A DNA stretch of 57,183 nt from Bryobacterales bacterium. GTDB taxonomy: Bacteria > Acidobacteriota > Terriglobia > Bryobacterales > Bryobacteraceae. The position numbers were made by a program, and so were the translations under genes. The notes beneath the pieces are model-generated. The model had not been told where the DNA came from, did not search any database, and was given only the letters and a program-made list of their open reading frames with translations. This document shows positions 4,900-56,134 of this stretch, in pieces (within the stretch, counting starts at the first letter, position 1; every line of letters begins with the position of its first letter). The stretch is from the NCBI GenBank assembly GCA_003166475.1, contig PMVV01000438.1, positions 1 to 57,183 on the forward strand, in the 5' to 3' direction.

Positions 4900-6311
4900 A
4901 CCGGCTACGCAACAGGCTGATCGGGATCTTTCTGGCGGCTACTCTAGTGCCGCTAGCCGCCACGCTCTGGATTACAACTTCCCTGCTGGATCGCAGCCTG
5001 AGCTATGCCTCCACAGGGGAACTGGACCGGCTGTCGCGCTCGCTGCAAAAGACCGGCAAAGAGTTGTACCAGCGCGCCTGCGACGCTCTGAAAAACGATG
5101 CGCTGGGCGGACGTGTGGAACCGCTGCGTTACGGCGCGGGCCGGCAGGGCGGGTGGCCGGCGCCGGTGAAGACGTTCTTCGACAGCGGCGACGCCGAACG
5201 TTTCGTCATTTCCGGAAGCGGCGGGGACCGGATCGAATACCTGGCGCGGCGCGGCGATGAGGTATGGCAATGGTCCACCAGCCTGGGCGGCGTGGGTCTG
5301 GACGATCTTTCGCGCGAGATCCGCAGCGCGCGGGAAATCGTGGAAAAGCGGCAATCGCGCGATCTGCTGCGCGGGTTCACGTACACTTATGTGCTGCTGG
5401 CGGCTTCGGTGTGGATCGCATCGCTGGTGCTGCTGGTATATCTGGCGCATCGCATCAGCCGCCCCATACAACAACTGACGGCGGGCCTCGCGCAACTGGC
5501 GGCAGGGGACCTGGCCACGCGCGTGGAAGCGCGCCGCGACGACGAGGTGGGCCGTGCCATGCGCGCCTTCAACGACATGGCGGAGCGCCTGCAGCGCTCG
5601 ACCGAACGCCTGGTATACCTGACGCAACTGGCAAGCTGGCGGACTCTGGCGCGCAAGATGGCGCACGAGGTGAAGAACTCGCTGACGCCCATCCGGCTCA
5701 CCGTGGAGGAGATGCTGGCGCGTTCGGGCGATAGCGACCGCGCGTTCATGGAACAGGCCGCGCAGATCGTGGTGGAAGAGGTGGAGAGCCTGGAACGCCG
5801 CGTGCGTGCGTTCTCGCAATTCGCCGCCGAGCCCGCGGTCGAGCCCGTGCCGCTGGATCTGAATGCGCTGCTGGAAGAGCGCATCGCTTTTTTGAAGAGC
5901 GGGCATCCTGAACTGAGCTACGACCTGCGCCTGGACGCCAGCCATCCCACCGCGCTGGCCGATCAGGATCTGGTGAAAGGCATTCTGACGAACCTGCTGG
6001 AAAACGCCGCGGAAGCCGCGGGCGCGGGCGGGCGCATTCTGGGCATTACCGCGGTGCACAACGGCCACGCGCTGGTGGAAGTACACGATTCCGGCCCGGG
6101 CCTGAGCGAACAGATTCGGCAATCCTTGTTTCAGCCTTCCATTTCGTTCAAGAAGGGCGGTATGGGACTGGGGCTTTCGATCTCCCGTAAGGGCGCCCTG
6201 CTGACGGGCGGCGATATCGTGCTGGTGAAAGGAGAACTGGGCGGCGCCGCATTCCGCGTGCTGCTGCCCGTCGAGCGAAATGGCATCCAAGCGCATTCTG
6301 ATCGTGGATGA
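4896..6311 (+). CDS. HAMP-domain sensor histidine kinase (NtrY-like)
   Basis: GTG 4896 lies in frame within ORF 4347..6311. It has two TM segments, a HAMP domain, the H-box MAHEVKNSLTPI, the N-box NLLENAAEA, G1 DSGPG and G2 GMGLGLS. Confidence 0.85.
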   Translation: MNRLRNRLIGIFLAATLVPLAATLWITTSLLDRSLSYASTGELDRLSRSLQKTGKELYQRACDALKNDALGGRVEPLRYGAGRQGGWPAPVKTFFDSGDAERFVISGSGGDRIEYLARRGDEVWQWSTSLGGVGLDDLSREIRSAREIVEKRQSRDLLRGFTYTYVLLAASVWIASLVLLVYLAHRISRPIQQLTAGLAQLAAGDLATRVEARRDDEVGRAMRAFNDMAERLQRSTERLVYLTQLASWRTLARKMAHEVKNSLTPIRLTVEEMLARSGDSDRAFMEQAAQIVVEEVESLERRVRAFSQFAAEPAVEPVPLDLNALLEERIAFLKSGHPELSYDLRLDASHPTALADQDLVKGILTNLLENAAEAAGAGGRILGITAVHNGHALVEVHDSGPGLSEQIRQSLFQPSISFKKGGMGLGLSISRKGALLTGGDIVLVKGELGGAAFRVLLPVERNGIQAHSDRG

Positions 6312-7626
6312 CGAAGAGAATATCGGCCGCTCGCTGCGTCTGATCCTGGAGCGCGAGGGCTACTCGATCGCGGTTTGCCGATCCATGCGGGAGTTTCGCG
6401 CGCATCCGGATGTGGAGCGCGCCGACGCGTTCCTGTTCGACGTGCGCCTGCCGGACGGCAGCGGCATCGACCTGCTGCGCTCGGTGCGGCAGAACGGCAA
6501 TCCCGCGCCCGCGGTGATGATCTCGGGGCACGGCACCATCGCGGACGCGGTGGAGGCTACGCGCGCCGGCGCCTTCGATTTTCTGGAGAAGCCGCTGAGC
6601 CGCGATAAGGTGCTGCTGGCCATCAAGAACGCTTTGGAGCACTCCAGCCTGCGCGCGGAAAACGAGCGGCTGCGGGAGTTGGTGGGGGTCAGTCCGAAGA
6701 TGATCGGCTCCAGCCCGGCGTTTCAGCGCGCCGTGGAGCAGGCCAGCATGGCGGCGCGCTCGGATGCGCGCGTGCTGCTGATCGGCGAATCGGGCTCGGG
6801 CAAGGAACTGCTGGCGGCGCACATCCATCAGAACAGCCCGTTCGCCGCGGGACCGTTTGTGAAGGTGAATTGCGCGGCGATCCCGACGGAATTGATCGAA
6901 ACCGAATTGTTCGGCCACGAGAAGGGCGCGTTCACCGGCGCGGCCGGGGCGCGGCGCGGCAAGTTCGAGCTGGCCGACAGCGGCACGATATTCCTGGACG
7001 AAGTGGGCGATCTGCACGGGGCATCGCAGGCCAAGCTGCTGCGCGTACTGCAAGAGGGCGAATTCCACCGGGTGGGCGGCGAGCAGACCATTCGCGTGGC
7101 GGTGCGCGTGGTTTCGGCGACCAACCGCGATCTGAGCGCGCTGGTGGCGCAGGCGAAGTTTCGCGAGGACCTGTATTACCGGCTGAGCGTGGTGCCCATC
7201 CGGGTGCCGTCGCTGCGCGAGCGGCCGCAGGATATCAAGCTGCTGGCCGAGTATTTCCTGGACGATTTCTGCGCGCGCAACAATTTCAAACAGAAAAAGC
7301 TGGACGATTCGGTTTACCCGATTCTGGAGAGCTACCCGTGGCCGGGCAATGCGCGGGAGCTGCGCAACGCCATCGAGCGCATGGCCATTCTGACGGCGGG
7401 CGAGCGGCTGACGCGCGAGGCGATCCCGGTGGAGATTCGGGTGCAGCGGGAGCCGGGGCCGCGGTCGAGCGTGCAAGAGGCGCGGGAATCGGCGGAGCGC
7501 GATCATATTCTGCGGGCGCTGGAGGAGGCGAATTGGAACGTGTCGGGGGCGGCGCGGGCGCTGGGGATGGAGCGGACGAATTTGCATAAGCGGATTCGGG
7601 CGCTGGGGTTGAGCAGGGGGAAGTAG
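6280..7626 (+). CDS. Sigma-54-dependent response regulator (NtrC/NtrX family)
   Basis: REC domain with ILIVDDE and FLFDVRLPDGSG. AAA+ domain with GESGSGKE, GAFTGA and ESELFGHEKG-like motifs. C-terminal Fis-type HTH. It overlaps the kinase by 32 nt. Confidence 0.9.
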   Translation: MASKRILIVDDEENIGRSLRLILEREGYSIAVCRSMREFRAHPDVERADAFLFDVRLPDGSGIDLLRSVRQNGNPAPAVMISGHGTIADAVEATRAGAFDFLEKPLSRDKVLLAIKNALEHSSLRAENERLRELVGVSPKMIGSSPAFQRAVEQASMAARSDARVLLIGESGSGKELLAAHIHQNSPFAAGPFVKVNCAAIPTELIETELFGHEKGAFTGAAGARRGKFELADSGTIFLDEVGDLHGASQAKLLRVLQEGEFHRVGGEQTIRVAVRVVSATNRDLSALVAQAKFREDLYYRLSVVPIRVPSLRERPQDIKLLAEYFLDDFCARNNFKQKKLDDSVYPILESYPWPGNARELRNAIERMAILTAGERLTREAIPVEIRVQREPGPRSSVQEARESAERDHILRALEEANWNVSGAARALGMERTNLHKRIRALGLSRGK

Positions 7627-13838: not shown

Positions 13839-15377
13839 GTGATGCAAATGGACGTTTTCATTGCGCGCCAACCGATACTCGACCGGCAACGCCAGCTCTA
13901 CGCCTACGAACTGCTCTTTCGTTCCGAGGCGCGCCACAATGCCTTCGACGGCGGGGACGGCGCGGCCGCCACTACCCGGCTGATTGCCAACGCCCTCCTG
14001 GCGATGGGGCTGGAGAGCTTGCTGTGCGGCAAGAAGGCCTTCATCAACTTCGATCGCAGCCTGCTGCTTGGCGGATTGCATTCCGTTCTCCCGCCCGAGA
14101 TTCTGGTGATCGAGGTTCTCGAAACGGTCGAACCGGATGGCGAAGTCCTGGCCGCCTGCCAGAGGCTCTCCAAACAGGGCTATACCTTGGCCATGGACGA
14201 TTTTGTCCCGGATGCCCGTTTTGAACCGCTGGCCCGCTTGGCGAAGCTCATCAAGGTGGACCTGCTGGCGACGTCGCGGCCGGACCAGGAGCGCCTGCTG
14301 CGGAAGTACCAGCCCCTGGGAATCGCCATCCTCGCCGAGAAGGTCGAAACCGCCGAAGAGTTCCAATGGGCGCTGGGCGCCGGGTACGACTATTTCCAAG
14401 GCTACTTCTTCGCGCGCCCGGAGATCGTGCGCGGGCGGCGCATCCCGGCGTCGAAACTGACGTGTCTGCGCCTGCTCGCGGAGGCGCAGCAGATGGAACC
14501 GGACTTCGGCCGGTTAGAGACGATTGTCTCCAGCGACGTGTCGCTCTCTTACAGTCTTCTACTCTACGTGAACTCGGCGCTTTTTTCGCGCGGAACCGAG
14601 ATTGGCTCGATCCGGCAAGCCATCGCCGTGCTCGGCGAGGAGGGCATCCGGCACTGGGCCGTGCTGGCTGCCCTGCCCATGATGGCGAAAGACAAGCCGG
14701 GCGAACTGATCACCCTATCGCTGGTGCGCGCGCGCTTCTGCGAGCGCCTGGCCGGTCTGGCGCGAATCGCCCCACCCAACCTGGCGTTCCTGATGGGCTT
14801 GTTTTCCCTGCTGGACGGGCTCATCGACCTTCCCATCCGGGAAGCCCTGGCGAAAGTCCACGCCGATCCCGCCATCACGGGCGCCCTGACCGGCACCGCG
14901 CCGCCCGGCGATCGCTACCGGGACGTGTATCAGATGGCGCGCCGCTACGAGGCGGGCGATTGGGACGGCGCGGGGGCGCTGGCGGCGGCGTCCGGCATCG
15001 AGACCTGCCAACTCGCCGAAGCTTACGCGGAATCCGCCTTTTGGACCCAACAGGCGCTGCACGCCACGTCTCGAAAAACCAATGTACGGCGGCACGTGCG
15101 CCACCCCGCCGCGGGCGAACTGCGCCTCCGATGGCAAGAGCCTTCCGGACGGGAGCGGGTGGTTGCCGCCACCATCGTGAACGCGTCGGCCGAGGGTTTG
15201 CAGTTGCGGATATCCGAGCCGATTCCCGTTCGTTCTCCGGTCAGTTGCACCGGCCCGAAGATGTGCGTATCCGGCAGAGGCACGGTTCGCTATTGCAACT
15301 TGGTCAAGGGAAAGTATCTCATCGGCGTCGAATTTCGCGGCGGTACCGGGTGGAGCGGAGCGCCGGCTTCCCGCTAG
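13839..15377 (+). CDS. EAL-HDOD-PilZ three-domain c-di-GMP protein
   Basis: N-terminus ARQPILD...EVLE...NFD...DDF...KVD...EKVE...FQGYFF (EAL residues). The middle HDOD-like region is LSYSLLLYVNSALF...IRQAIAVLG. The C-terminus has RRHVR...NASAEG (PilZ RxxxR and D/NxSxxG motifs). Confidence 0.8.
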   Translation: MMQMDVFIARQPILDRQRQLYAYELLFRSEARHNAFDGGDGAAATTRLIANALLAMGLESLLCGKKAFINFDRSLLLGGLHSVLPPEILVIEVLETVEPDGEVLAACQRLSKQGYTLAMDDFVPDARFEPLARLAKLIKVDLLATSRPDQERLLRKYQPLGIAILAEKVETAEEFQWALGAGYDYFQGYFFARPEIVRGRRIPASKLTCLRLLAEAQQMEPDFGRLETIVSSDVSLSYSLLLYVNSALFSRGTEIGSIRQAIAVLGEEGIRHWAVLAALPMMAKDKPGELITLSLVRARFCERLAGLARIAPPNLAFLMGLFSLLDGLIDLPIREALAKVHADPAITGALTGTAPPGDRYRDVYQMARRYEAGDWDGAGALAAASGIETCQLAEAYAESAFWTQQALHATSRKTNVRRHVRHPAAGELRLRWQEPSGRERVVAATIVNASAEGLQLRISEPIPVRSPVSCTGPKMCVSGRGTVRYCNLVKGKYLIGVEFRGGTGWSGAPASR

Positions 15378-24701: not shown

Positions 24702-25366
24702 GCGCGCGGCAAAAACTTGCCTGGCTGGGGTGGTGCTTGGGGCAGGCTGCGTGGGTGGCGGCGGCCCAGTCTCCGCAGGAGGCGGCGCGTCAGGCCATGG
24801 AGGCCTCCATAGCCCGCCAGCGGCAGGCGGTGGCGGCCATGCAGATTCCCATCGAGAGGCAGCGCGCGGCGGTGGCGGCGGCGCGCGCGGACTCGGGCGG
24901 CGGCGGCGCGGCCGGACAGGCTCCCCCGGCGCCCTTCTTCACGCTTTCCTGGCCCGCCCTGGGCGTCGAATGCGATCCGTTGCCCGAGATCGAGCTGACT
25001 CCGCTGATCCAGCAGGCTGCCCAGCGCGAGGGATTGGACGCCAACCTGTTGCGGGCGGTCGCCCGGCAGGAGTCCGGATTCCGATCCTGCGCCGTTTCGC
25101 CAAAGGGCGCCATGGGACTGATGCAGTTGATGCCGGCCACGGCCCTGGAATTGGGCGTGCGCGATCCCTTCGATCCGGCCGAGAACCTGTCGTCCGGCGC
25201 CCACCTTCTGAAGCAACTGCTGGCGCGTTTTGGCGGCGACACGGCGCTGGCGCTGGGCGCTTACAATGCAGGACCAAACCGGGTGGAGGAGAGCGGCGGG
25301 GTGCCCCAGATTCCGGAGACCATCCGTTACGTGCAGCAGATTCTGAGCCGGCTTCCCATACCCTAA
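24698..25366 (+). CDS. Soluble lytic transglycosylase (SLT domain), exported
   Basis: The SLT catalytic region is ARQESGFRSCAVSPKGAMGLMQLMPATA...GAYNAGP. The ATGA start overlaps the csrA stop. Confidence 0.85.
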   Translation: MSARQKLAWLGWCLGQAAWVAAAQSPQEAARQAMEASIARQRQAVAAMQIPIERQRAAVAAARADSGGGGAAGQAPPAPFFTLSWPALGVECDPLPEIELTPLIQQAAQREGLDANLLRAVARQESGFRSCAVSPKGAMGLMQLMPATALELGVRDPFDPAENLSSGAHLLKQLLARFGGDTALALGAYNAGPNRVEESGGVPQIPETIRYVQQILSRLPIP

Positions 25367-31923: not shown

Positions 31924-32352
31924 TCACTTGAACAGATCGATGGAACGCATGATCATGTCCTTGACCGCGGAGATGGCCGCCACATTGGCCTCGAAGCCGC
32001 GCGCCGCGCCGGTCAGGTCCACCATGTCTTCGGCCGGATTGAGGCGCGGATACGCCACGTAGCCGTCCGGGCCGGCGTCGGGATGGCCCGGCAAATAGCG
32101 CCGCTCCGGATCGCGCTGGTCCACGCTGACCTCCGCGACCGCCACCCCTTCGGCGAGATGCGACTCGAATAACGAAGCAAAAGAAGCGGCCATGGGCTGG
32201 GAGGCGAAGACCGCATCCTTGCGGCGGTAGGGGCCGCCCTCGGGAGTGCGCGTGGTTTCGGCGTTGGCCAGGTTCTCGACCAGCAACTCCGCGCGTGTGC
32301 GCTCGGCCGCCATGCCCGACGCGCTGACCGCCATGGCCGAAAACAGGCTCAT
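31924..32352 (-). CDS. flgC: Flagellar basal-body rod protein FlgC
   Basis: The N-terminus SASGMAAERTRAELLVENLANAETTRTP and the C-terminus VDLTGAARGFEANV are characteristic. Confidence 0.9.
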   Translation of the reverse strand: MSLFSAMAVSASGMAAERTRAELLVENLANAETTRTPEGGPYRRKDAVFASQPMAASFASLFESHLAEGVAVAEVSVDQRDPERRYLPGHPDAGPDGYVAYPRLNPAEDMVDLTGAARGFEANVAAISAVKDMIMRSIDLFK

Positions 32353-32687
32353 GAATTGCTCCCGCTCTGCAGCGCCGCCCGGATCGACTGCACCTCGCTG
32401 CGCACCAGGTTGGACGCCAGATTGAAACGCATATCGTTCTCCGCCAGCAGCCGGGACTCCCGGTCCAGGCTGACGTTGTTGCCGTCGTTCTTCGCCGGCA
32501 ATCCGGCGACTTCGAAGGATGCCGGGACCCCGCCGCCCAGAGCCGACCGGAACTCCGACTGGAAGTCGATGTCCTTGGTTTTATACCCGGGCGTGTCGGC
32601 ATTGGCGATATTGGAGGCCACCACCTTCTGGCGGGCGCTCAGCAGATCCATATATCGTTCCAAGGTGTCCGACAGACGGCTTAGCAT
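32349..32687 (-). CDS. flgB: Flagellar basal-body rod protein FlgB
   Basis: ARQKVVASNIANADTPGYKTKDIDF is present. It overlaps flgC by 4 nt. Confidence 0.9.
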   Translation of the reverse strand: MLSRLSDTLERYMDLLSARQKVVASNIANADTPGYKTKDIDFQSEFRSALGGGVPASFEVAGLPAKNDGNNVSLDRESRLLAENDMRFNLASNLVRSEVQSIRAALQSGSNS

Positions 32688-32701
32688 GCCACCTTCTTGC
32701 A

Positions 32702-32717
32702 GGCAACCGCAGTTCCA
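32702..32717 (-). promoter_or_regulatory. Candidate sigma-54 promoter (TGGAAC-N5-TTGCC) for the flgB operon
   Basis: The reverse complement reads TGGAACTGCGGTTGCC. The GG and GC are correctly spaced, but the site lies only 15 nt from the flgB ATG, so the leader would be very short. Confidence 0.3.
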
Positions 32718-32747
32718 CGGCTAAATGCCGCAGAATGAGCGGTGGAC

Positions 32748-32785
32748 AGGACCCGCGCCGCCAAGATCCCGCCGCCGGCGCAAGG
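32748..32785. promoter_or_regulatory. Inverted repeat CCGCCAAGATCC-N14-GGATCTTGGCGG
   Basis: Perfect 12-bp arms between the cheY stop and the flgB start. The same arm sequence forms an 18-bp palindrome at 42707. Confidence 0.6.
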
Positions 32786-32937
32786 ATCTTGGCGGCCGGT
32801 GCGGGCCCTTTGGCGGGCCAGGCGAGGCACAAGGCTAGGCACAAGGCTAGGCTGCGGCGTGGCCACTGCGCTTGGGATAGGCGCGCCATAGGGGAGGGGA
32901 GGCTGCCCCCTGGGGGCGGGTCCAGCCGGGCGGCGGG

Positions 32938-33309
32938 TCAAAGAATGGAGCCGATCTTTTCCTGGATTTGTTCGGCGGTGAAGGGCTTCCGGATATAGGC
33001 GGCCGAACCCAGCCGGATCGCCTGGCCGACCTTTTCTTCGCCGCCTTCGGTGGTGATCATCACCACCGGAAGGGACCGCCACTGTTCGTTGCCCTTCAAC
33101 TCCGCCAGCAGGCCCAGGCCGTCCAGGTTGGGCATATTGATGTCCGACAGGACCAGATTGAGGGGATGGTTCCGGACGATGTCCAGAGCTTCGAGGCCGT
33201 CGCGGGCCTCGAAGATCTCGCCGATCGCCAGGGCGGTTTGCCGCAGCACGCGGATTAGAATCTTCCGGATCGCGGTGGAATCGTCTACCACTAGAATGTT
33301 CAAAGCCAT
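32938..33309 (-). CDS. cheY: CheY-like single-domain response regulator
   Basis: ILVVDDS...VLSDINMPNLDG...MITTEG...YIRKPF. All REC signature residues are present. Confidence 0.9.
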   Translation of the reverse strand: MALNILVVDDSTAIRKILIRVLRQTALAIGEIFEARDGLEALDIVRNHPLNLVLSDINMPNLDGLGLLAELKGNEQWRSLPVVMITTEGGEEKVGQAIRLGSAAYIRKPFTAEQIQEKIGSIL

Positions 33310-34881: not shown

Positions 34882-35766
34882 TCAGTCCCCCGCGGCGGCT
34901 TCGGCGGGCTGGCCGGCGGTGCCCGCCTCCGGGTTTTTCCCGGGCGCCTTGCGGGGGGCCCGCGGGGGCGCATAGGCCTCCAGCTTGATCCGGATCAGCT
35001 TGGGATTCAAGCCTTCCGCGATTCCCAGCACGCCTTCGAGCATCAACTCGCGCAACTCGATGGCGGCCTGCATGCGGAAGCGGAGCTTGCTGCCGGCCGG
35101 AAGAAAGAATAAGTTCGCCGAGGCCACGCCGTAGACCGTGGCCACAAAGGCCACCGCGATTCCCTTGCCCACTTCGTCGATATTAGCCAGGTGCTTCATC
35201 ACCTGCATCAGCCCCAGCACCGCGCCGATGATCCCGATGGTGGGAGCGTATCCGCCGGCCGCTTCATAGACCTTGGCTTCGGCTTCCCCGCGATGCTCTT
35301 CCAAGGCGAGATCCAGCTCCATCATGCGGCGCAGCTCCTGCAGGTCGGTCCCATCCACCGCCAGGTTCAAAGCCTTGCGCAGAAAGGGGTCTTCAATGGA
35401 CTCGGTATCTTCCTCCAGCGAGACGATGCCGTTCTTGCGGGCTTTGGTGGCGTAGCCGATGATCTGCTCGACGACGGCTTCGGGCGCGTGGGTGGCCTCG
35501 AAAAAAACCGTGAGCAGCTTGCCGGCGGCGCTGCGCAGAATACCCATCGGGGTGGTCACCATGACCGCCCCCAGGGTGCCTCCCAGAACGATGATGGCGG
35601 CGGTCAACTGCGCGACATCCTTGACTTTGCCGTCTTCGAGCACCAGCCCTCCCAGGATGCCGGCCAGCGCCAGGGCCAGGCCGCCCATGGTCGCCAGGTC
35701 CGGCCGGCGCCCGGGCTTTTTCCCCTGGGAATCAGGAGCCGGCGCGGTTGTCTCGGTCTGTGCCAT
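34882..35766 (-). CDS. motA: Flagellar stator protein MotA
   Basis: ATG 35766 follows a GGAG site (the ORF track begins at TTG 35790). It has four TM segments and the sequence APTIGIIGAVLGLMQ...VATVYGVASANLFFLP. Confidence 0.9.
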   Translation of the reverse strand: MAQTETTAPAPDSQGKKPGRRPDLATMGGLALALAGILGGLVLEDGKVKDVAQLTAAIIVLGGTLGAVMVTTPMGILRSAAGKLLTVFFEATHAPEAVVEQIIGYATKARKNGIVSLEEDTESIEDPFLRKALNLAVDGTDLQELRRMMELDLALEEHRGEAEAKVYEAAGGYAPTIGIIGAVLGLMQVMKHLANIDEVGKGIAVAFVATVYGVASANLFFLPAGSKLRFRMQAAIELRELMLEGVLGIAEGLNPKLIRIKLEAYAPPRAPRKAPGKNPEAGTAGQPAEAAAGD

Positions 35767-36031
35767 GTTCGATTCGATCTCCACCGGCAACCACGGCCGC
35801 GTCCCCCGAGGCGCCCCGCCCTCCCGGGATGGACGGGCCCAGGAGCGCGCCGCTATAGATGGCCCGGCGGAACTCCACCACCCGCCGGACTACCTCTTCG
35901 GCCGATTCCAGCACCACCAGCTTCTGCCCGGTGGTCAGACTGATCACCGTATCGGGGGTGGCCTCGATCCATTCGATGAGGTCCGCGTTGAGCACCAGCG
36001 GCAGATGGTTGAGGCGCGTGAGGTGAATCAT
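35732..36031 (-). CDS. flbD: Flagellar protein FlbD
   Basis: MIHLTRLNHLPLVLNADLIEWIEATPDTVISLTTGQKLVV is the FlbD signature. The C-terminal tail overlaps the motA start. Confidence 0.85.
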   Translation of the reverse strand: MIHLTRLNHLPLVLNADLIEWIEATPDTVISLTTGQKLVVLESAEEVVRRVVEFRRAIYSGALLGPSIPGGRGASGDAAVVAGGDRIEHGTDRDNRAGS

Positions 36032-36037
36032 GCGCCC

Positions 36038-37015
36038 TCAATCCTCATCGGCCGCGCCCGCCGCAACCGGCCCGGTTTCGAGCAGAAAGCCGCGCTTCCG
36101 GCCGCTGGAGACGACCCGGCCGCAAAACCGCAGCTTGCCGTTGAGCAGACCGTCCAGCGGCCGGCTCACGGGATAGTCGAGGATCAGCACGTCGCCTTCG
36201 GTCAGGCGCAGCAGATCCCGCGCCAGCAAGCGGGGGCCGCTCAGGCGCACGTCCAGGGCCAGCCGCGAGGGCCGGATGCGGGCCAGCATGGCCGCCTGTT
36301 CGGCCTCGGTCGACTGGGTGCGGCGCATGGACCACTGCTGGTCGAACTTCTGCCGCATCATCTTGGCGATGATGGACGGGACCGCGATGTTCATCATCCC
36401 CACGTTGTCCCCGATGCGGATTTCAATGCCCACCGCCACCACCGCTTCGGTGGGCGCCAGCACGCGCAGGAATTGAGGTTCGGTCTCGACCGTATGGATG
36501 GTGAACTCGATCGGGGCGACCGCTTGCCAGGCTTCCTTGAGATCGTTCAGAATGATGCGGAAAAGGCTGTCGAGCAGTTTCTGCTCGATCTCGGTGATCT
36601 CCCGCCGCAAAGCCGATGTGGACTTGCCATCGCCTCCCAACAGCACTTCCAGGATGGGGAAGACCAGCGCCGGGCTGAGCTCCAGCAGTCCGTAGCCGTC
36701 GTAGGGCCGCAGCCCCAGCGAGAGCATGCACGTGGGCGACGGCAGCCCGTTCAGAAACTCCTCGCAGGAGAGTTGCTCGACGCTGACCAGGTTTACCAGC
36801 AGGTAGGTGCGCAAATAGGCCGAGAGGCTGGAGACCAGATTGTGGACGAAGGTCTCATGCAGTTGGTGAATGGCCCGTAATTGGGATTTGGCGATGCGAT
36901 CCGGGCGGCGGAAGTCGAAAGGCACTACCTTCCTGCCAGGGGACTCCTGCGCCTGGCCACCGGCTGCATTATTGAACAGTGCGTCGATTTCCCGCTGCGA
37001 TAAGGTGCGATTCAC
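36038..37015 (-). CDS. fliM: Flagellar motor switch protein FliM
   Basis: The N-terminal CheY-P binding peptide LSQREIDALF is present, then FDFRRPDR and a C-terminal SpoA-like domain. The start codon is GTG. Confidence 0.9.
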   Translation of the reverse strand: MNRTLSQREIDALFNNAAGGQAQESPGRKVVPFDFRRPDRIAKSQLRAIHQLHETFVHNLVSSLSAYLRTYLLVNLVSVEQLSCEEFLNGLPSPTCMLSLGLRPYDGYGLLELSPALVFPILEVLLGGDGKSTSALRREITEIEQKLLDSLFRIILNDLKEAWQAVAPIEFTIHTVETEPQFLRVLAPTEAVVAVGIEIRIGDNVGMMNIAVPSIIAKMMRQKFDQQWSMRRTQSTEAEQAAMLARIRPSRLALDVRLSGPRLLARDLLRLTEGDVLILDYPVSRPLDGLLNGKLRFCGRVVSSGRKRGFLLETGPVAAGAADED

Positions 37016-41865: not shown

Positions 41866-42597
41866 TTACGAAGCCACCCGGGCTACCTCTTCGACGGCCT
41901 CGCGATTCATCTGTGAACCCAGCGTGGCGGCCTTCTGCAGCATTTCAAACTGGCGCATGACCGCCACCAGGCGCACGGCCGATTCCGCGGCGCCGACATT
42001 GGAACTCTCCAGTTTGCCCTGCTCGACTACGGCTCCGGATGCCGGCTGGGACGCCGCCGCGCTGCGAAAATAGCTGGCCCCTTGCTTGACCAGCGAACCG
42101 GTATCGGAGAAGTCCGCTATCTCGAGCTGGCCCAGGACTTGGCCGCTCTGGCTCACCGTGCCGTCGGGCGCCACCTGCAGATCGCCGGACGTTTGGATGG
42201 CCAGGTTCGCGCCGGATACCGTCCGCACCGCGTATCCCTCGGTGGTGACCAGCGCTCCGCCGGGGGACACCCGAAAACTCCCATTGCGTGTGAAGAGGCT
42301 TCCGGAAGGCCCGTCCACGGCGAAGAAGCCACTGCCGGAAAGCGCCAGATCCGAGGGGCTGCCGGTCGCGCGCAGCGTGCCTTGGGAGAAATCGGTCCAG
42401 GGACGCTCGACCACCGGGAGCGTGGCCGCCGATCCGTCCTGCGGGCCGGCGGCTTCGGCGGACACATAAAGGTTATAGAACTCGCGGTCGGTCTTGTAGC
42501 CGCCGGTTTCCGTGTTGGCCAGATTGTTGGCCAGCATGTCCAGAGACTCCATGCGGGCCCGCATACCGCCGGCCGCCGAGATCGTTAGGGTATCCAT
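41866..42597 (-). CDS. flgF: Flagellar proximal rod protein FlgF
   Basis: ATG 42597 lies within ORF 41866..43548. It has the N-terminus MLANNLANTETGGYKTD and the C-terminus LESSNVGAAESAVRLVAVMRQFE. Confidence 0.9.
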   Translation of the reverse strand: MDTLTISAAGGMRARMESLDMLANNLANTETGGYKTDREFYNLYVSAEAAGPQDGSAATLPVVERPWTDFSQGTLRATGSPSDLALSGSGFFAVDGPSGSLFTRNGSFRVSPGGALVTTEGYAVRTVSGANLAIQTSGDLQVAPDGTVSQSGQVLGQLEIADFSDTGSLVKQGASYFRSAAASQPASGAVVEQGKLESSNVGAAESAVRLVAVMRQFEMLQKAATLGSQMNREAVEEVARVAS

Positions 42598-42620: not shown

Positions 42621-42636
42621 TGCAAGCGGGGAGCCG
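42621..42636 (-). promoter_or_regulatory. Candidate sigma-54 promoter of the flgF operon (cGGCTC-N5-TTGCA)
   Basis: The reverse complement reads CGGCTCCCCGCTTGCA. The -12 element is perfect. It ends 23 nt upstream of the flgF ATG. Confidence 0.45.
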
Positions 42637-42706
42637 AAGGGTGGGCGCACAAAAGGAAAGGTTTGTGGTCCAGCGCCGGGACAAGTTCCCGGCGGAAACG
42701 GCCCCA

Positions 42707-42724
42707 CCGCCAAGATCTTGGCGG
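42707..42724. promoter_or_regulatory. Perfect 18-bp palindrome CCGCCAAGATCTTGGCGG
   Basis: It lies in the divergent flgF/fliK intergenic region. The arms are identical to those of the inverted repeat at 32748-32785. Confidence 0.6.
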
Positions 42725-42782
42725 CGCCCGGCGCGCAACTGCTTGGAATCGAGCGCAGAGCTTTGGTTGCCGGAGTGCGCTT

Positions 42783-44243
42783 GTGCGGGACGTGATCGCC
42801 GTCTCTTCAGAATTACCGGGCGCCTCCGGCGCCAATACCGCGATGGCCGCCGGCGGGGCGGCCATGGGCGCAGGAACGGTGCCGGCGGCAGTGGCGGGCG
42901 GCGGTTTCCGGTCGCTTCTGGATGGCTGCCTGGACTGCGGCGGGGACCAACCGCCCGCGCCGGAGCCGCGCCGGGCGCCCGGCGGGAAGAAACCAAACTC
43001 CGGCACGGCGGCTCCCACTGCGATTCCAGTTCCGGCGGCAGCCACCGCCCTCCGGACGTCCGCATTGGGCTTGGGAGCATGGGGAAGTCCCGGAGAGACA
43101 ACGGCGGCGGTGGCCCAGGAAGTCGACGCCGTGAGCGCCCGGGACCTCTCCGGCGCCGGCGGTTCCGCGCCAGATCCCGCGCCGCTGCCCGGCTGGGCGC
43201 AAGCGGCCGGCCGGTTGGCATGGGATCTCCCCTTACCGCCGGACGCTCCGGCCGCGGCCGCCGATCGAGACCAAGGGCCGGGCGCCCGACCGGCGGCCGC
43301 GCCCGAGTTGGCGTTCGCAGCTCGCTTGCTCCCGCCCGAACCGGCGCCACCCTCGCACCAGGCCGCGGAGGGGCTTCCCGGTCCCGCGTCCGCCGCGGTT
43401 TCGGGAGAGGCAGCCGCCAGCTCCGCAACCGATCCCCGGGACCGGAGTATGCCGGCGGAGAGCGTCGAGGCCCAACCCGGCCATGCCGGGATCCCGGAAC
43501 CCCCGCATGGCCTGCGCACCGCACCGCTCGACGAGGGGCAAGCCGCATCGCCGGACACAGCTATCGCCGGAAATGCCCGCAACGCTTTCTCCGCGGCAGA
43601 AGGGCAAGCGACCCCCGCCGCAGACCGGCGGGATGCCGGCCCAGTTGCCGGCGCCGCCCCCAAGGGTGCGGCACCTGCTATGGGACACCCCACGGGCGAC
43701 CAGGGCGGGGGTGCCACCGCTGGACAGGCGGATATGGGGAGCGTGGGGAACGCAGCCAGCCCACTTCCCGCCAGCCGGGAGGTGCAGGTCCCCGTTTCCG
43801 GGCAGCAAGCCGGCGCAGCGCGTCCCGCCGAGGCGGAGCCCCCCGAACCGGCGGCGCAGCCGGTCTCCCGCGACGTCTCCCTGCATCTGGCCGATGGCGA
43901 AAGCAGCGTGGACATCCGCATGGCCGAGCGCGCCGGAGAGATCCGCGTGACGGTGCACACTCCGGACCGCGATCTGGCCAACTCTTTGCGTGCAGACCTG
44001 CCGGATCTGGTCGGCAAGCTGCGGCAAAGCGGATTCCAGGCGGAGGCCTGGCGTCCGGCCTCGACAGCATCGGACGCGGGCCGCCGCGGCGGTTCGGACG
44101 GCTCGCCCTACCAGGAGCATTCGCCGGGCGCGCGCAAAGACGGCCGGCAACCGCAACCGCAGCAACGGCAGTCGAAAGATCCATCCCGCTGGGCCGGGGA
44201 ATGGCAGTCCAGCCTCGACCCCGCACAGGAGCCCCCCCTATGA
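42783..44243 (+). CDS. fliK: Flagellar hook-length control protein FliK (start uncertain: GTG 42783/42792 or ATG 42843)
   Basis: The body is rich in Pro and Ala. The C-terminal Flg_hook-type domain is VSLHLADGESSVDIRMAERAGEIRVTVHTPDRDLANSLRADLPDLVGKLRQSGF. Confidence 0.75.
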   Translation: MRDVIAVSSELPGASGANTAMAAGGAAMGAGTVPAAVAGGGFRSLLDGCLDCGGDQPPAPEPRRAPGGKKPNSGTAAPTAIPVPAAATALRTSALGLGAWGSPGETTAAVAQEVDAVSARDLSGAGGSAPDPAPLPGWAQAAGRLAWDLPLPPDAPAAAADRDQGPGARPAAAPELAFAARLLPPEPAPPSHQAAEGLPGPASAAVSGEAAASSATDPRDRSMPAESVEAQPGHAGIPEPPHGLRTAPLDEGQAASPDTAIAGNARNAFSAAEGQATPAADRRDAGPVAGAAPKGAAPAMGHPTGDQGGGATAGQADMGSVGNAASPLPASREVQVPVSGQQAGAARPAEAEPPEPAAQPVSRDVSLHLADGESSVDIRMAERAGEIRVTVHTPDRDLANSLRADLPDLVGKLRQSGFQAEAWRPASTASDAGRRGGSDGSPYQEHSPGARKDGRQPQPQQRQSKDPSRWAGEWQSSLDPAQEPPL

Positions 44244-51333: not shown

Positions 51334-52437
51334 ATGCGAATCAAGTCTTTTTATGCAGCCTCGGTGGAAGGCGCGGTGGCCCTGGCCCGCCGGGAAATGG
51401 GGGCCGAGGCCATGCTGGTGGAATCCCGCAAGGCGCCGCTGGAGGCGCGCCACTTGGGCGAGTACGAAGTGGTGTGCGCACTGGTGCCGGAAGCCGAGCC
51501 GGTCCCGCCGCAGCCGCCGGAGGATGCCGGCGCGCAGGATGCCCGGCTGGCCGGCGAACTGGCCGAGATGCGCCGCCAACTGGACCTGATGGGCAAGACC
51601 ATTACGCGCTCGGCCTGGAGCGGCGCGCGCTGGGGATGCTCGAGCCCCGAGATGTCGGAGTGGCACGCCCGCCTGATGGCGACGGACATGGACGGGGAAC
51701 TGGTCCACGAAATCCTGAGCGCCGCCGAGCGCCGCGCGGGGCCGGGGTTGAGCGGGCTGGAAGACGCCGTAGCGGCGGAGCTCGAACGGCGCATCCTGGT
51801 GGATGGCGCATGGGAAGCGCCCAACGGACCGCGCGCGGTGGCCTTGGCCGGCCCCCCGGGCGCCGGCAAGACCACCATGCTCGCCAAGCTGGCGGTGATC
51901 CGCGGTCTGGCCCAGCGCCGGCCCATGGCGCTGGTGTCCATGGACGATTTCCGGGTGGGGGGAGCCGACCAGTTGCGCTCCTATGCCGCCATTCTGGGCA
52001 TCGGTTTCCAAGCGCTGGACAATCTGGGCGCGCTGGCGCAAGCTCTGGCGGAGCATCAGGGGAAACGGCTGGTTTTGATCGACACTCCCGGGTACGGCCC
52101 GCACGACATGGACCGCGCGGCGGATCTGGCCCGCTTCCTGTCCGGCCGGCCGGGCACGGCCACCTGGCTGGTGCTAACGGCATGCATGAAATCCGCCGAT
52201 CTAACGCATGTGGCGGAACGCTTCGAGATTTTCCGTCCGTCCAGCCTGCTGTTCACCGGGCTGGACGAGACCGCCTGCTTCGGCACGGCGTTCTCGTTGT
52301 CCGTGCGGCAGGCGAAGCCCATCTCGTTCCTGGGAACCGGACAGGAGATCCCGGACGACGCCGCGCCGGCCACCAAAGAGCGCATCCTGAGTCTGCTGTG
52401 GCCGGAGACGCTCGCCGCCAGGCGGTTAGCCGCATGA
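51334..52437 (+). CDS. flhF: Flagellar SRP-type GTPase FlhF
   Basis: G1 GPPGAGKTT, G3 LIDTPG and TGLDE (TKLDE-like). It follows flhA. Confidence 0.9.
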   Translation: MRIKSFYAASVEGAVALARREMGAEAMLVESRKAPLEARHLGEYEVVCALVPEAEPVPPQPPEDAGAQDARLAGELAEMRRQLDLMGKTITRSAWSGARWGCSSPEMSEWHARLMATDMDGELVHEILSAAERRAGPGLSGLEDAVAAELERRILVDGAWEAPNGPRAVALAGPPGAGKTTMLAKLAVIRGLAQRRPMALVSMDDFRVGGADQLRSYAAILGIGFQALDNLGALAQALAEHQGKRLVLIDTPGYGPHDMDRAADLARFLSGRPGTATWLVLTACMKSADLTHVAERFEIFRPSSLLFTGLDETACFGTAFSLSVRQAKPISFLGTGQEIPDDAAPATKERILSLLWPETLAARRLAA

Positions 52438-52457
52438 AAGGAACCCCATGAGGCGCT

Positions 52458-53222
52458 ATGACTAACCCGTATTGCCGCCCGGAAGCCGCAGAGGCGGACG
52501 CCGAGGAACGCGAGCGCCTCATCCTGGAGCATTTGCCGCAAGTCCGGCTGATTGCCCGCCGCATCCGCGACCGCCTGCCCGATAACGTGAGCCTCGACGA
52601 CCTGGTGTCCGCCGGCATCGTCGGACTGATCGCAGCCGTGGACCAGTACGATCCGGCGCACAACGTCAAGCTGAAAACCTACGCCGAGCACAAAATCCGG
52701 GGCGCCATTCTGGACAGCCTGCGCGGTCTGGACTGGGCGCCGCGGCAGAGGCGCAAGAAAGCCAAGCAAATCGAGTTTGCGATCTGCCGCGCCGAGCAGC
52801 GGCTGCGCCGGATTCCGGACGAAGACGAGATTGCCGCCGAGATGGGCGTGGACCTGAAAGAATACCACCGCTGGCTGGTGGAAGTGCAAGGCCTCAACAT
52901 CGGCAGCCTGGAATACACCTCGGAGGATGGCGAAGGCAAGGGCCTGCTCGAATACCTTAGCGACGACCAGGACCAACTGCCTTCCCGCGCGCTGGAGCGG
53001 TCGGAGCTCGAACAACTGCTGTCCGCGGCCATTCGAAGAATACCTCCCATGGAGCGGACGGTGCTCGGCCTCTACTATCTGGAAGAGCTCACTTTGCGGG
53101 AAATTGCCCAGGTGGTGGACCTGCACGAGTCGCGCATCTCCCATCTGAAGTCGCAGGCCATCCTGCGGCTGCGGGCGGATATCGAGAAGGTCTGGCCCAA
53201 CCAGGCCGGGGGGATAGTGTGA
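52458..53222 (+). CDS. fliA: Flagellar sigma factor sigma-28 (FliA/WhiG)
   Basis: Region 2 is DLVSAGIVGLIAAVDQYDP...TYAEHKIRGAILD. Region 4 is LTLREIAQVVDLHESRISHLKSQA. Confidence 0.9.
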   Translation: MTNPYCRPEAAEADAEERERLILEHLPQVRLIARRIRDRLPDNVSLDDLVSAGIVGLIAAVDQYDPAHNVKLKTYAEHKIRGAILDSLRGLDWAPRQRRKKAKQIEFAICRAEQRLRRIPDEDEIAAEMGVDLKEYHRWLVEVQGLNIGSLEYTSEDGEGKGLLEYLSDDQDQLPSRALERSELEQLLSAAIRRIPPMERTVLGLYYLEELTLREIAQVVDLHESRISHLKSQAILRLRADIEKVWPNQAGGIV

Positions 53223-54694: not shown

Positions 54695-56134
54695 ATGATT
54701 GCCATAGCCATGGATATTGTCGAACCAGCCCGGCTGTTATGGATTGCAGCGGAAGATAGCCTGACGGCAGCGGCCCGCGTCCCTGAAATCGGCGGACTTG
54801 CGGTGGAGTACGCCGCCGGAATCCCCGAAGCTTTGGAGTACCTCAAGCGCTCCCGGATCGACGCGGCGGTGGTCGTGTTTCCGCTCCCGGAATACACCCC
54901 CGCGGAGGCGCTGGAGGAATTGCAGCGCGCCGACGGCGGCATTCCGTTAATTCTTTGGGATCCGTCGATGGGATTGCAGGATGCCGTTCATTTGGTCAAG
55001 TTGGGAGCTTTCGACGTTCTGGGCGGGGAAGCCGGACCCGAGCGGCTTGCCGCGGTTATAGAGGACGCCATCGCCGACCGCCGCAGCCAGGTATCGGCTC
55101 ACCCAGACGCCGATGAGCCTTGGCGGCGGATCCTGGTCGGGTCCACCCAGCCGTTTCAGGAAGTGGTGCGGATGGTACGGCTGGTGGGAAGCCGGCGCTC
55201 CACCGTGCTGATCACGGGCGAGACCGGAACCGGCAAAGAGATGGCGGCGCGGGCGGTCCACATGGCGGGGCCGCGAGGCCGTCTGCCCATGGTGTCGGTT
55301 TGCTGCAGCGCGCTCCCCGAGAATCTGCTGGAGGCCGAGCTGTTTGGACATGTGCGGGGGGCTTTCACCGGCGCCCTCAACCAGCGCATCGGACGCTTTG
55401 AGCAGGCCGACCGCAGCACCCTGTTTCTGGACGAAATCGGAGATATGCCGCTGGAGTTGCAAGCCAAGCTGCTGCGCGTCCTGCAGGAGCGCGAGTTCCA
55501 GCGGCTGGGCAGTTCCGAGAACATACGGGTGGACGTGCGCGTGGTGGCCGCCACCAACGCCGACCTGCCGGAGCGGGTCCGGCAGGGCCGCTTTCGCGAA
55601 GACTTGTACTACCGTCTCCATGTGGTCCCCATCCATCTGCCGCCGCTGCGCGCGCGCTTGGGCGATGTGGCGGCTTTGACCCATCACTTTCTAAGGAAAA
55701 TCTGCCGCTTGGAGGACCTCCCGCTGAAGCAGATCTCCCGCGAGGCGCTGCACCGGTTAAGCGAGTATTCCTGGCCCGGTAACGTGCGCCAGTTGGAAAA
55801 CGCGATAGAACGCGCCATCGTCCTGAGCGGAGACCGGGCCATGCTGTACCCGTCCGACTTCCCGCTGGACGGCCCCATCCCGCGCCCGGCTACCGGGCGC
55901 GCGAGCGCCAACTTTGTGCATGTGCCCGACGACGGCCTGGATTTCGAGCAGACCGTAGGGCAGATCGCGCGCGGCATCCTGGAACAGGCGCTGCGCAAAA
56001 CCAACGGAAACAAGAAAATGGCGGCCGACCTGCTGCGTCTCAAACGCACGACCTTGGCCGCAAAACTGAGGAGCCTGGAAAGCATCGCTCCGGAACTTGC
56101 GGCGATGGCCTCGGATTTCGTGCATTGCGCGTGA
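54695..56134 (+). CDS. Sigma-54-dependent activator with a degenerate receiver domain (FleQ/FlrA-like)
   Basis: The AAA+ domain has GETGTGKE, GAFTGA and the ELFGH region. There is a C-terminal Fis-type HTH (NKKMAADLLRLKRTTL). The N-terminal REC-like fold has AVVVFPLPEY where the phospho-accepting Asp is expected. Confidence 0.85.
   Translation: MIAIAMDIVEPARLLWIAAEDSLTAAARVPEIGGLAVEYAAGIPEALEYLKRSRIDAAVVVFPLPEYTPAEALEELQRADGGIPLILWDPSMGLQDAVHLVKLGAFDVLGGEAGPERLAAVIEDAIADRRSQVSAHPDADEPWRRILVGSTQPFQEVVRMVRLVGSRRSTVLITGETGTGKEMAARAVHMAGPRGRLPMVSVCCSALPENLLEAELFGHVRGAFTGALNQRIGRFEQADRSTLFLDEIGDMPLELQAKLLRVLQEREFQRLGSSENIRVDVRVVAATNADLPERVRQGRFREDLYYRLHVVPIHLPPLRARLGDVAALTHHFLRKICRLEDLPLKQISREALHRLSEYSWPGNVRQLENAIERAIVLSGDRAMLYPSDFPLDGPIPRPATGRASANFVHVPDDGLDFEQTVGQIARGILEQALRKTNGNKKMAADLLRLKRTTLAAKLRSLESIAPELAAMASDFVHCA

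What the first reader, a model, noticed from the sequence alone, without database searches (positions are those of the whole stretch)
32748..32785. Shared CCGCCAAGATC palindrome at two flagellar promoter regions (copy 1, upstream of flgB)
- CCGCCAAGATCC-N14-GGATCTTGGCGG has perfect 12-bp arms. It lies 61-98 nt upstream of the flgB ATG, just after the cheY stop.
- The same arm sequence occurs as a contiguous perfect 18-bp palindrome, CCGCCAAGATCTTGGCGG, at 42707-42724 in the divergent flgF/fliK region.
- I found no other full copy while reading the window. There is only a partial GGATCTTGGCC inside fliF.
- Two identical dyad arms sit in the only two intergenic regions that precede the early structural operons. 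This suggests a dimeric regulator binding site, for example for the FleQ-like activator at 54695.
- The alternative is a shared RNA or terminator hairpin.
Basis: seen in the sequence. Interest (0 to 1): 0.6.

Follow-up and report, generated by a model that had tools for sequence, protein, structure and literature searches.

The report
Enhancer boxes at sigma-54 flagellar promoters
The shared palindrome is most likely the docking site of the flagellar gene cluster's own sigma-54 activator protein, which makes it a new example, in an acidobacterium, of a kind of site already known from Pseudomonas and Vibrio.

Summary
The sequences are real, but copy 1 lies at 32758-32795, 10 nt right of the stated coordinates. 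Copy 2 is at 42707-42724 as stated.

What the sites are:
- The "N14 dyad" is two adjacent 18-bp near-palindromes of the copy-2 type, with core GCCA-N6-TGGC. Their centres lie at -75.5 and -95.5 from a conserved sigma-54 promoter of flgB.
- Copy 2, plus a weaker box 29 bp away, lies between divergent sigma-54 promoters of flgF and fliK. Each box is about -75 from one promoter and about -104 from the other.

Evidence that they are functional:
- Boxes and their distances recur in most of about 17 congeneric genomes, while the flanks diverge.
- The two arms show no covariation. There is no U-tract.
- Only these two dyads exist in the 7.56-Mb genome, so the element is neither a REP element nor a terminator.

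Best reading (about 0.75): these are upstream activating sites for the cluster's FleQ/FlbD-like sigma-54 activator at 54695-56134.

A second flagellar cluster on another contig has a paralogous activator. It carries 9 of the genome's 26 intergenic GTCA-N6-TGAC boxes, which match the Pseudomonas FleQ box.

This is a known kind of site in a new lineage. The scan has reported FleQ-type boxes before on other DNA. Binding is untested.

The parts
32758..32795 (.). Composite dyad (copy 1): two 18-bp boxes, 32758-32775 and 32778-32795, in inverted orientation
   Evidence: inverted repeat I3, 32757-32796. Weight-matrix scores are 13.6 and 16.2 bits.
32760..32773 (.). Promoter-proximal box core, GGCGGGATCTTGGC read on the minus strand; centre -75.5 from the predicted flgB start site
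   Evidence: A box scores at -74.5 to -76.5 in 9 of 17 congeners.
32780..32793 (.). Distal box core, GCCAAGATCCTTGC read on the minus strand; centre -95.5
   Evidence: A box scores at -94.5 to -98.5 in 16 of 17 congeners.
32702..32717 (-). Sigma-54 promoter of the flgB-flgC-fliE-fliF-fliG... operon, TGGAAC-N5-TTGCC. Predicted start site 32691, 4 nt before the ATG.
   Evidence: A TGG-N9-TGC element sits at the same place in all congeners and most family-level relatives.
32349..32687 (-). flgB, first gene of the operon
   Evidence: Pfam Flg_bb_rod
42707..42724 (.). Box I (copy 2), a perfect 18-bp palindrome with core GCCAAGATCTTGGC at 42709-42722. Centre is -74.5 from the fliK start site and -105.5 from the flgF start site.
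   Evidence: Conserved at -103.5 to -106.5 in 16 of 17 congeners.
42680..42693 (.). Box II, a weak copy (GCCGGGAACTTGTC read on the minus strand). Centre is -76.5 from flgF and -103.5 from fliK.
   Evidence: Only 4 bits in this genome. A scoring box (7.6-17.9 bits) sits at the same place in 10 of 17 congeners.
42621..42636 (-). Sigma-54 promoter of the flgF-flgG-flgA-flgH-flgI... operon, CGGCTC-N5-TTGCA. Predicted start site 42610.
   Evidence: Conserved in congeners
42764..42779 (+). Sigma-54 promoter of the fliK-flgD-flgE-...-flhA-flhF-fliA operon, TGGTTG-N5-GTGCG. Predicted start site about 42790, 2 nt before the GTG at 42792.
   Evidence: A TGG-N9-TGCA element is conserved in the reverse complement of the relatives' regions (read by eye).
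54695..56134 (+). Candidate binder: a sigma-54 activator (EBP1) with a degenerate receiver domain, an AAA+ domain carrying GAFTGA, and a Fis-type HTH
   Evidence: Orthologues are syntenic with the cluster in 17 congeners. The HTH is nearly invariant across the genus.
24706..24723 (.). Possible third box, GCGGCAAAAACTTGCCTG, at the csrA stop / SLT gene start. Its role is unknown.
   Evidence: 19.2 bits. The box pattern is kept in 17 of 18 congeners although the encoded residues vary.

Best explanation
The palindromes are upstream activating sequences (enhancers) for a sigma-54 enhancer-binding protein. The most likely binder is the cluster's own activator, EBP1 (54695-56134).

**Proposed mechanism**
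- Dimers of its C-terminal Fis-type helix-turn-helix bind 14-bp cores of the form G-S-C-A-N6-T-G-S-C, extended to about 18 bp as CGCCAAGATCTTGGCG.
- Each of the three early (class II) sigma-54 promoters has one box centred at about -75 and a second at -95 to -105.
- In the divergent flgF/fliK region, two boxes 29 bp apart serve both promoters in mirror image.
- Two adjacent bound dimers would nucleate the AAA+ ring. The ring loops to the promoter, contacts sigma-54 through its GAFTGA loop, and uses ATP to open the promoter.
- This turns on rod, ring, hook, export-gate and fliA (sigma-28) genes. FliA then drives the late genes.

**What is shown and what is inferred**
- Shown: the sequences, their positions, their conservation, the promoters, and the domain make-up of EBP1.
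- Inferred: binding, who binds, ring assembly and activation.
For: 1. **Promoters.** Conserved -24/-12 promoters lie immediately upstream of flgB, flgF and fliK. rpoN is present in the genome.
2. **Fixed distances.** Box centres are -75.5 and -95.5 (flgB), -76.5 and -105.5 (flgF), and -74.5 and -103.5 (fliK). The same distances, within about 1-3 bp, recur across congeners in which the surrounding sequence has diverged.
3. **Independent detection.** The matrix used to find the flgB boxes was trained only on flgF box I of other genomes, so those hits are independent.
4. **Genome-wide specificity.** Box I is the top genomic hit. Paired with a sigma-54 promoter at -65 to -125, the flagellar sites rank first.
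5. **The candidate binder.**
   - EBP1 has Sigma54_activat, GAFTGA and HTH_8, and a receiver-like domain with Val at the phospho-Asp position.
   - It is the only such protein inside the 15.5-56 kb flagellar cluster.
   - It is syntenic in congeners, and its HTH is nearly invariant.
6. **Internal parallel.**
   - The second flagellar cluster (contig C204) carries the closest paralogue, EBP2 (52% identity).
   - C204 holds 9 of the genome's 26 intergenic GTCA-N6-TGAC boxes on 56 kb.
   - Some are tandem pairs at -98.5 and -114.5 from strong sigma-54 promoters.
7. **Match to known boxes.**
   - The 14-bp architecture is that of the Pseudomonas FleQ box GTCaNTAAAtTGAC (PMC6120874, PMC10723142).
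   - It also matches yGTCA-N6-TGACr, predicted for a Desulfovibrio FlrA/FleQ-like activator.
   - A TGGC half-site is noted in the V. cholerae FlrA-bound region (PMC4641369).
Against: - There are no binding, expression or start-site data.
- Box II is weak in this genome (4 bits). The proximal flgB box falls below threshold in about half of the congeners.
- The genome encodes about 21 other sigma-54 activators, including one at 6280-7626 in the window, so another could be the binder.
- EBP1 lacks the FleQ N-terminal Pfam domain. No fleN/flhG gene lies between flhF and fliA, so Pseudomonas details need not transfer.
- In this genome copy 1 would fold into a very stable hairpin if transcribed (-53.9 kcal/mol).
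Confidence: 0.75

Rival explanations
1. The boxes are enhancers, but they are bound by a different sigma-54 activator encoded elsewhere. Candidates are the receiver-AAA+-HTH protein at 6280-7626 or one of about 20 others, acting like FleR/FlrC at class III promoters.
For: There are 22 tblastn hits for such activators in the genome. A canonical response-regulator activator lies 9 kb from the cluster. An earlier scan note (e1-3072765, untested here) read a GGCA-N6-TGCC palindrome in another genome as a FlrC-type site.
Against: The 6280 gene sits among Omp85, methyltransferase and AMP-ligase genes, not flagellar ones. All three early operons carry the same box, so no second tier is needed. Each of the two flagellar clusters has exactly one activator of the same subfamily and its own box type.
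Confidence: 0.1
2. The sites bind a non-activator regulator. This could be a repressor or a nucleoid protein of the Fis/other HTH type that modulates the sigma-54 promoters, or couples them to a signal such as c-di-GMP.
For: Dyad symmetry alone does not identify the protein. A conserved box also lies at the csrA/SLT junction with no sigma-54 promoter nearby, which an activator-only model does not explain.
Against: Sigma-54 promoters need an activator, and no other conserved candidate enhancer was seen in these regions. The -75/-100 placement and the FleQ-box architecture fit an activator (PMC4641369).
Confidence: 0.08
3. Copy 1 acts as an RNA hairpin: a U-tract-less terminator or stabiliser at the 3' end of the cheY-like transcript, insulating the flgB operon from read-through.
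For: The hairpin has a perfect 13-bp stem. The 101-nt fold is -53.9 kcal/mol with z = -2.7. It lies downstream of the cheY-like gene.
Against: - There is no U-tract, and the terminator scan is silent there.
- Across 18 genomes the arms pair no better than shuffled columns (81.0% against 79.8%; 114 of 500 shuffles reach it) and show no excess of compensatory change.
- Copy 2 is a loop-less palindrome upstream of both divergent start sites, so it cannot share this role.
- The inner half-sites are conserved too.
Confidence: 0.05
4. The element is a chance similarity or a REP/MITE-type dispersed repeat.
For: The 11-mer occurs 26 times in the genome, against 0 for the reversed control.
Against: The other 22 copies are single arms without a partner. 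Only the two flagellar dyads exist. The sites are conserved at orthologous positions in about 17 other species.
Confidence: 0.02

Closest known systems
Pseudomonas FleQ and its FleQ box (GTCaNTAAAtTGAC; Baraquet & Harwood 2016, as quoted in PMC6120874 and PMC10723142)
   Same: - The site is a 14-bp pseudo-palindrome with 4-nt outer half-sites of the form GxCA/TGxC and an A/T-rich centre.
- It is read by the Fis-type HTH of a sigma-54 activator whose receiver-like domain lacks the phospho-Asp.
- That activator is the master regulator of flagellar genes.
- The window genome's second flagellar cluster uses exactly GTCA-N6-TGAC.
   Different: - Here the half-site is GCCA/TGGC or GGCA/TGCC.
- Boxes come in pairs at fixed positions, -75 and about -100.
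- The activator has no FleQ N-terminal Pfam domain.
- No FleN/FlhG gene lies beside flhF.
- There is a single sigma-54 tier, with no FleSR.
- The host is an acidobacterium.
Vibrio cholerae FlrA and Desulfovibrio DVU2894 predicted sites (PMC4641369)
   Same: Both are inverted repeats: yGTCA-N6-TGACr, and GTCA-N6-TGGC in the FlrA-bound flrBC region. The TGGC half-site of the present boxes is therefore already seen there.
   Different: Those are single sites upstream of regulator genes, and in Desulfovibrio they are only predicted. Here both half-sites are of the GCCA type and the sites precede structural operons.
Caulobacter FlbD and ftr elements (PMC3930126)
   Same: A sigma-54 activator binds dyad elements near flagellar sigma-54 promoters, including a divergent pair served by shared sites. 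EBP1 aligns full-length to the FlbD model.
   Different: EBP1 scores 311.6 bits against a cut-off of 750, so it is not an equivalog. The ftr consensus could not be retrieved because the papers are not held. FlbD acts on middle and late genes and represses early ones, with FliX as partner.
NtrC tandem enhancer sites at glnA (own knowledge)
   Same: Two adjacent dyad sites about two to three helical turns apart nucleate an AAA+ oligomer upstream of a sigma-54 promoter.
   Different: The sequence differs (TGCACC-N5-GGTGCA), the sites lie further upstream, and activation is phosphorylation-controlled.

Membership tests
Upstream activating sequence of a sigma-54 enhancer-binding protein | Lies roughly 70-150 bp upstream of a -24/-12 promoter | tested here: met
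   Box centres lie at -74.5 to -105.5 from three conserved TGG-N9-TGC promoters.
Upstream activating sequence of a sigma-54 enhancer-binding protein | Dyad symmetry fit for a dimeric HTH, conserved at orthologous promoters | tested here: met
Upstream activating sequence of a sigma-54 enhancer-binding protein | The genome encodes sigma-54 and an activator with GAFTGA and a DNA-binding domain | tested here: met
   rpoN is on C140.
Upstream activating sequence of a sigma-54 enhancer-binding protein | The activator binds the site and transcription depends on it | not testable with these tools
   This needs EMSA, footprinting or DAP-seq, plus reporter assays.
FleQ box / FleQ regulon (Pseudomonas type) | 14-bp core with GxCA-N6-TGxC architecture | tested here: met
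   compared with PMC10723142
FleQ box / FleQ regulon (Pseudomonas type) | Consensus GTCA...TGAC | tested here: not met
   Cluster 1 boxes are GCCA/GGCA...TGGC/TGCC. GTCA...TGAC is found only in the second cluster, on C204.
FleQ box / FleQ regulon (Pseudomonas type) | The regulator carries the FleQ N-terminal domain (Pfam PF06490, recalled from own knowledge) | tested here: not met
   The Pfam scan of EBP1 lists only a sub-threshold Response_reg match in the N-terminus.
FleQ box / FleQ regulon (Pseudomonas type) | A FleN/FlhG partner is encoded with flhF | tested here: inconclusive
   flhF (51334-52437) is followed directly by fliA (52458). The rest of the genome was not searched for FlhG.
Caulobacter FlbD | Scores above the NCBIfam equivalog cut-off (NF050807) | tested here: not met
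   311.6 bits against a cut-off of 750
Intrinsic terminator / structured RNA | Stem followed by a U-tract, with pairing maintained by compensatory change | tested here: not met
   There is no U-tract and no covariation beyond column composition.
REP / MITE dispersed palindromic repeat | Many intergenic copies across the genome | tested here: not met
   Only two dyads exist in 7.56 Mb.

The most novel reading that the evidence does not exclude
One acidobacterial genome runs two paralogous flagellar systems, and a one-base-pair difference in the enhancer half-site keeps them transcriptionally separate. Cluster 1 uses G-S-C-A and cluster 2 uses G-T-C-A.

The difference would be read by a few residues of the Fis-type HTH. 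EBP1 has GNKKM...KRTTLAAKLR and EBP2 has GNRTA...KRTTLIMKLR. The differing positions align with Fis Q74-R76 and R89-K90, which contact DNA by own knowledge.

If true, this would be a natural, minimal example of how duplicated sigma-54 activators diverge in specificity.
Probability: 0.35. Interest if true: 0.5.

Novelty: new member of a known kind. Interest (0 to 1): 0.35.

Why it matters
**Regulation of motility in Acidobacteriota.** My literature searches found no work on this. This locus gives a complete, testable three-tier wiring:
- one orphan sigma-54 activator;
- three sigma-54 operons, each with a box at -75;
- FliA, then sigma-28 late genes.

**A defined site in a family where the consensus is disputed.** ChIP-seq in two Pseudomonas species failed to recover a robust FleQ consensus (PMC6120874).

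**A natural test of specificity.** Two paralogous activators, each with its own box type, sit in the same genome. This makes a ready experiment on half-site specificity.

**Practical use.** The boxes allow flagellar class II promoters to be annotated in related uncultured soil bacteria.

Tried and rejected
- **REP or dispersed repeat: rejected.** There are 26 copies of the 11-mer but only two dyads. The excess over the reversed control probably reflects the favoured codons GCC-AAG-ATC, which is an inference.
- **Exact-sequence conservation: not found.** The strict CCAAGATC...GATCTTGG pattern occurs in none of 40 relatives. The site is conserved as a degenerate box, not as a string.
- **Terminator or RNA hairpin: rejected as the shared explanation**.
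- **Wider regulon: nothing convincing.** Pairing box hits with sigma-54-like promoters genome-wide gives nothing above noise outside the flagellar cluster. The strong hit at C327:8420 looks like the end of a coding region in low-GC DNA.
- **Sigma-54 promoter near the 24706 box: none seen by eye.**
- **Taxon.** The genome-contig scan was dominated by generic AAA+ patterns and gave only a rough placement. The best named hit is a Bryobacter sp. MAG at 51% identity, followed by other Acidobacteriota MAGs.
- **ftr consensus of Caulobacter: not retrieved.** The papers are not held.
- **FleQ's own HTH alignment: not obtained.** FleQ ranked tenth and only five alignments are shown.

Full report
**Observation**

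Copy 1 reads CCGCCAAGATCC-N14-GGATCTTGGCGG at 32758-32795. The stated coordinates are 10 nt too low. With one more G/C pair the arms are 13 nt. The whole 32757-32796 stretch is a 40-bp near-palindrome (I3).

Copy 2, CCGCCAAGATCTTGGCGG, is at 42707-42724.

Pfam/NCBIfam confirm the genes:
- On the minus strand: a receiver-only CheY-like gene (32938-33309), then flgB (32349-32687), flgC, fliE, fliF.
- flgF (41866-42597, minus strand) diverges from a plus-strand operon that begins with a GTG at 42792 (fliK-like, no Pfam hit), followed by flgD and flgE.

The dyad lies 71-108 nt upstream of the flgB ATG and 142 nt past the cheY-like stop.

In the whole genome (7.56 Mb, 497 contigs, 62.6% G+C) the 11-mer occurs 26 times. 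The other 22 copies are lone arms.

**What the dyads sit next to**

All three adjacent operons have -24/-12 promoters:

| Operon | Promoter | Coordinates and strand |
|---|---|---|
| flgB | TGGAAC-N5-TTGCC | 32702-32717, minus |
| flgF | CGGCTC-N5-TTGCA | 42621-42636, minus |
| fliK | TGGTTG-N5-GTGCG | 42764-42779, plus |

I fetched the orthologous regions from 40 relatives and extracted the upstream sequences. The promoters are present at the same place in all congeners that have the cluster, and in most family-level relatives.

rpoN is present once in the genome.

Taking the second G of the GG as -24, the predicted start sites are 32691, 42610 and 42790.

**The N14 dyad is two boxes**

In relatives the flgB region reads, in consensus, GCGCCAAGATCTTTGCGC-nn-GACGGGATCTTGGCGG. 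This is two 18-bp near-palindromes of the copy-2 type, set side by side.
- The outer half-sites match the consensus.
- The inner half-sites deviate from it but are themselves conserved.

In the divergent region, box I (copy 2) is accompanied by a second box 29 bp away.

I built an 18-bp weight matrix only from flgF box I of other genomes and scanned every region.

| Region | Box | Centre in this genome | Range in congeners | Congeners with a scoring box |
|---|---|---|---|---|
| flgB | distal | -95.5 | -94.5 to -98.5 | 16 of 17 |
| flgB | proximal | -75.5 | -74.5 to -76.5 | 9 of 17 |
| flgF | box I | -105.5 | -103.5 to -106.5 | 16 of 17 |
| flgF | box II | -76.5 | -74.5 to -77.5 | 10 of 17 |

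For fliK the same two boxes are at -74.5 and -103.5. Each of the three promoters therefore has a box at about -75 and another at -95 to -105. The divergent region is mirror-symmetric.

In this genome box II is weak, at 4 bits.

**Specificity**

- Box I is the best-scoring site in the genome: 26.7 bits, against a maximum of 21 in a reversed-genome control.
- In the window the only hits of 13 bits or more are the three boxes and a fourth at 24706.
- Paired with a sigma-54-like promoter at enhancer distance, the flagellar sites rank first genome-wide and nothing else stands out.

**Hairpin or protein site?**

Across 18 genomes the 12 putative pairs form in 81.0% of cells, against 79.8% after shuffling partners among sequences. 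114 of 500 shuffles reach the observed value, and compensatory changes are not in excess. Complementarity therefore follows from both arms drifting around one consensus, as expected for half-sites.

Three further points argue against a shared RNA role:
- There is no U-tract, and the terminator scan is silent there.
- Copy 2 has no loop.
- Copy 2 lies upstream of both start sites.

The very stable hairpin of copy 1 in this genome (-53.9 kcal/mol) leaves a small chance of a secondary role.

**Who binds**

EBP1 (54695-56134, 479 aa) has these features:
- Sigma54_activat, AAA lid and HTH_8 domains.
- A Walker A motif and a GAFTGA motif.
- A sub-threshold receiver domain in which Val replaces the phospho-accepting Asp.

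It is the only sigma-54 activator inside the flagellar cluster, which runs from flgL at 15478 to EBP1. The other activator in the window (6280-7626) sits among unrelated genes.

EBP1 orthologues are found in 17 of 20 congeners, on the same contig as flgF where assemblies allow. They are missing from G007 and G020, which also lack the flagellar genes searched for. They are also missing from G019, where flgC and the SLT gene were found but flgF and EBP1 were not. Its HTH, GNKKMAADLLRLKRTTLAAKLR, is nearly invariant in the genus.

EBP1 is below the cut-offs for FlbD, NtrC and the other named families. It has no FleQ N-terminal domain.

**An internal parallel**

- Contig C204 carries a second flagellar cluster.
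- That cluster has the closest paralogue, EBP2, at 52% identity.
- Of the 26 intergenic GTCA-N6-TGAC sites in the genome, 9 lie on this 56-kb contig.
- Tandem pairs lie at -98.5 and -114.5 from TGGAACGGCGCTTGCT and TGGCACGGCACTTGCT.
- No GTCA...TGAC box lies in intergenic DNA of cluster 1. Only one G+C-rich GCCA...TGGC match lies in cluster 2.
- The EBP2 HTH differs at GNRTA versus GNKKM, and KRTTLIM versus KRTTLAA. These positions align with Fis Q74-R76 and R89-K90, which contact DNA by own knowledge.

**Comparison with known systems**

- The Pseudomonas FleQ box is GTCaNTAAAtTGAC: a 14-bp core with inverted GTCAAT/ATTGAC repeats. It is modelled as bound by a symmetric Fis-like HTH dimer that reads the 5'-GxC ends (PMC6120874, PMC10723142).
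- Kazakov et al. predicted yGTCA-N6-TGACr for a Desulfovibrio FlrA/FleQ-like activator. They also note GTCA-N6-TGGC in the V. cholerae FlrA-bound flrBC region (PMC4641369).

The present boxes share the architecture and differ at positions 2 and 13. Cluster 2 of the same genome matches the classical box.

The scan has already reported FleQ-type boxes in other genomes, so the kind is known. My literature searches found nothing on flagellar regulation in Acidobacteriota. The taxon is inferred only from the best named hits.

**Verdict**

The sites are most likely enhancers for EBP1 that drive three sigma-54 early flagellar operons. Confidence is 0.75 that they are enhancer sites, and somewhat less that EBP1 is the binder.

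Novelty is modest: a new member of a known kind. The most interesting open reading is paralogue insulation by a single half-site position.

Noticed in passing
window 24706-24723: A third box (GCGGCAAAAACTTGCCTG, 19.2 bits) starts 4 nt after the csrA stop, inside the first codons of the SLT lytic transglycosylase gene. The GNCA-N6-TGNC pattern is kept in 17 of 18 congeners although the encoded residues vary (RQKLA, RQEFA, RQEIV, RRKLG...). I saw no sigma-54 promoter nearby. It may give the activator early or internal control of the SLT gene, or it may be a coding constraint.
   Followed up: partly
own genome, contig C204 (about 10-54 kb): A second complete flagellar cluster has its own activator (35187-36485, 52% identical to EBP1). 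It holds 9 of the genome's 26 intergenic GTCA-N6-TGAC boxes. Tandem pairs 16 bp apart lie at -98.5 and -114.5 from strong sigma-54 promoters.
   Followed up: partly
window 32685-32717 and 42764-42794: The sigma-54 -12 elements lie so close to the start codons that flgB and fliK mRNAs would have leaders of only about 4 nt and about 2 nt, so they would be nearly leaderless. The 4-5-nt spacing for flgB recurs in almost all relatives. By contrast flgF has a 12-13-nt leader.
   Followed up: partly
window 42737-42750; also 32718-32757 and 42637-42679: Further conserved elements lie between the boxes and the promoters. AACTGCTTGGAATC precedes PfliK and resembles the reverse of the IHF consensus (own knowledge). 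T-rich tracts, CTTTCCTTTTGTG before PflgF and TCATTCTG...ATTTAG before PflgB, are conserved in congeners. They are candidate bending or IHF sites.
   Followed up: no
window 32763-32766, 32787-32790, 42714-42717: All three strong boxes of this genome carry GATC at their centre. The tetranucleotide is not kept in many congeners, so a methylation link is unlikely, but it was not examined.
   Followed up: no
window 51334-53222: flhF is followed directly by fliA, with no flhG/fleN gene between them, unlike the flhA-flhF-fleN-fliA arrangement of Pseudomonas (PMC6424431). I did not search the rest of the genome for FlhG.
   Followed up: no
window 13839-15377: A protein with EAL and HDOD domains is encoded immediately next to the flagellar cluster (flgL at 15478). 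It is a possible c-di-GMP link to motility.
   Followed up: no
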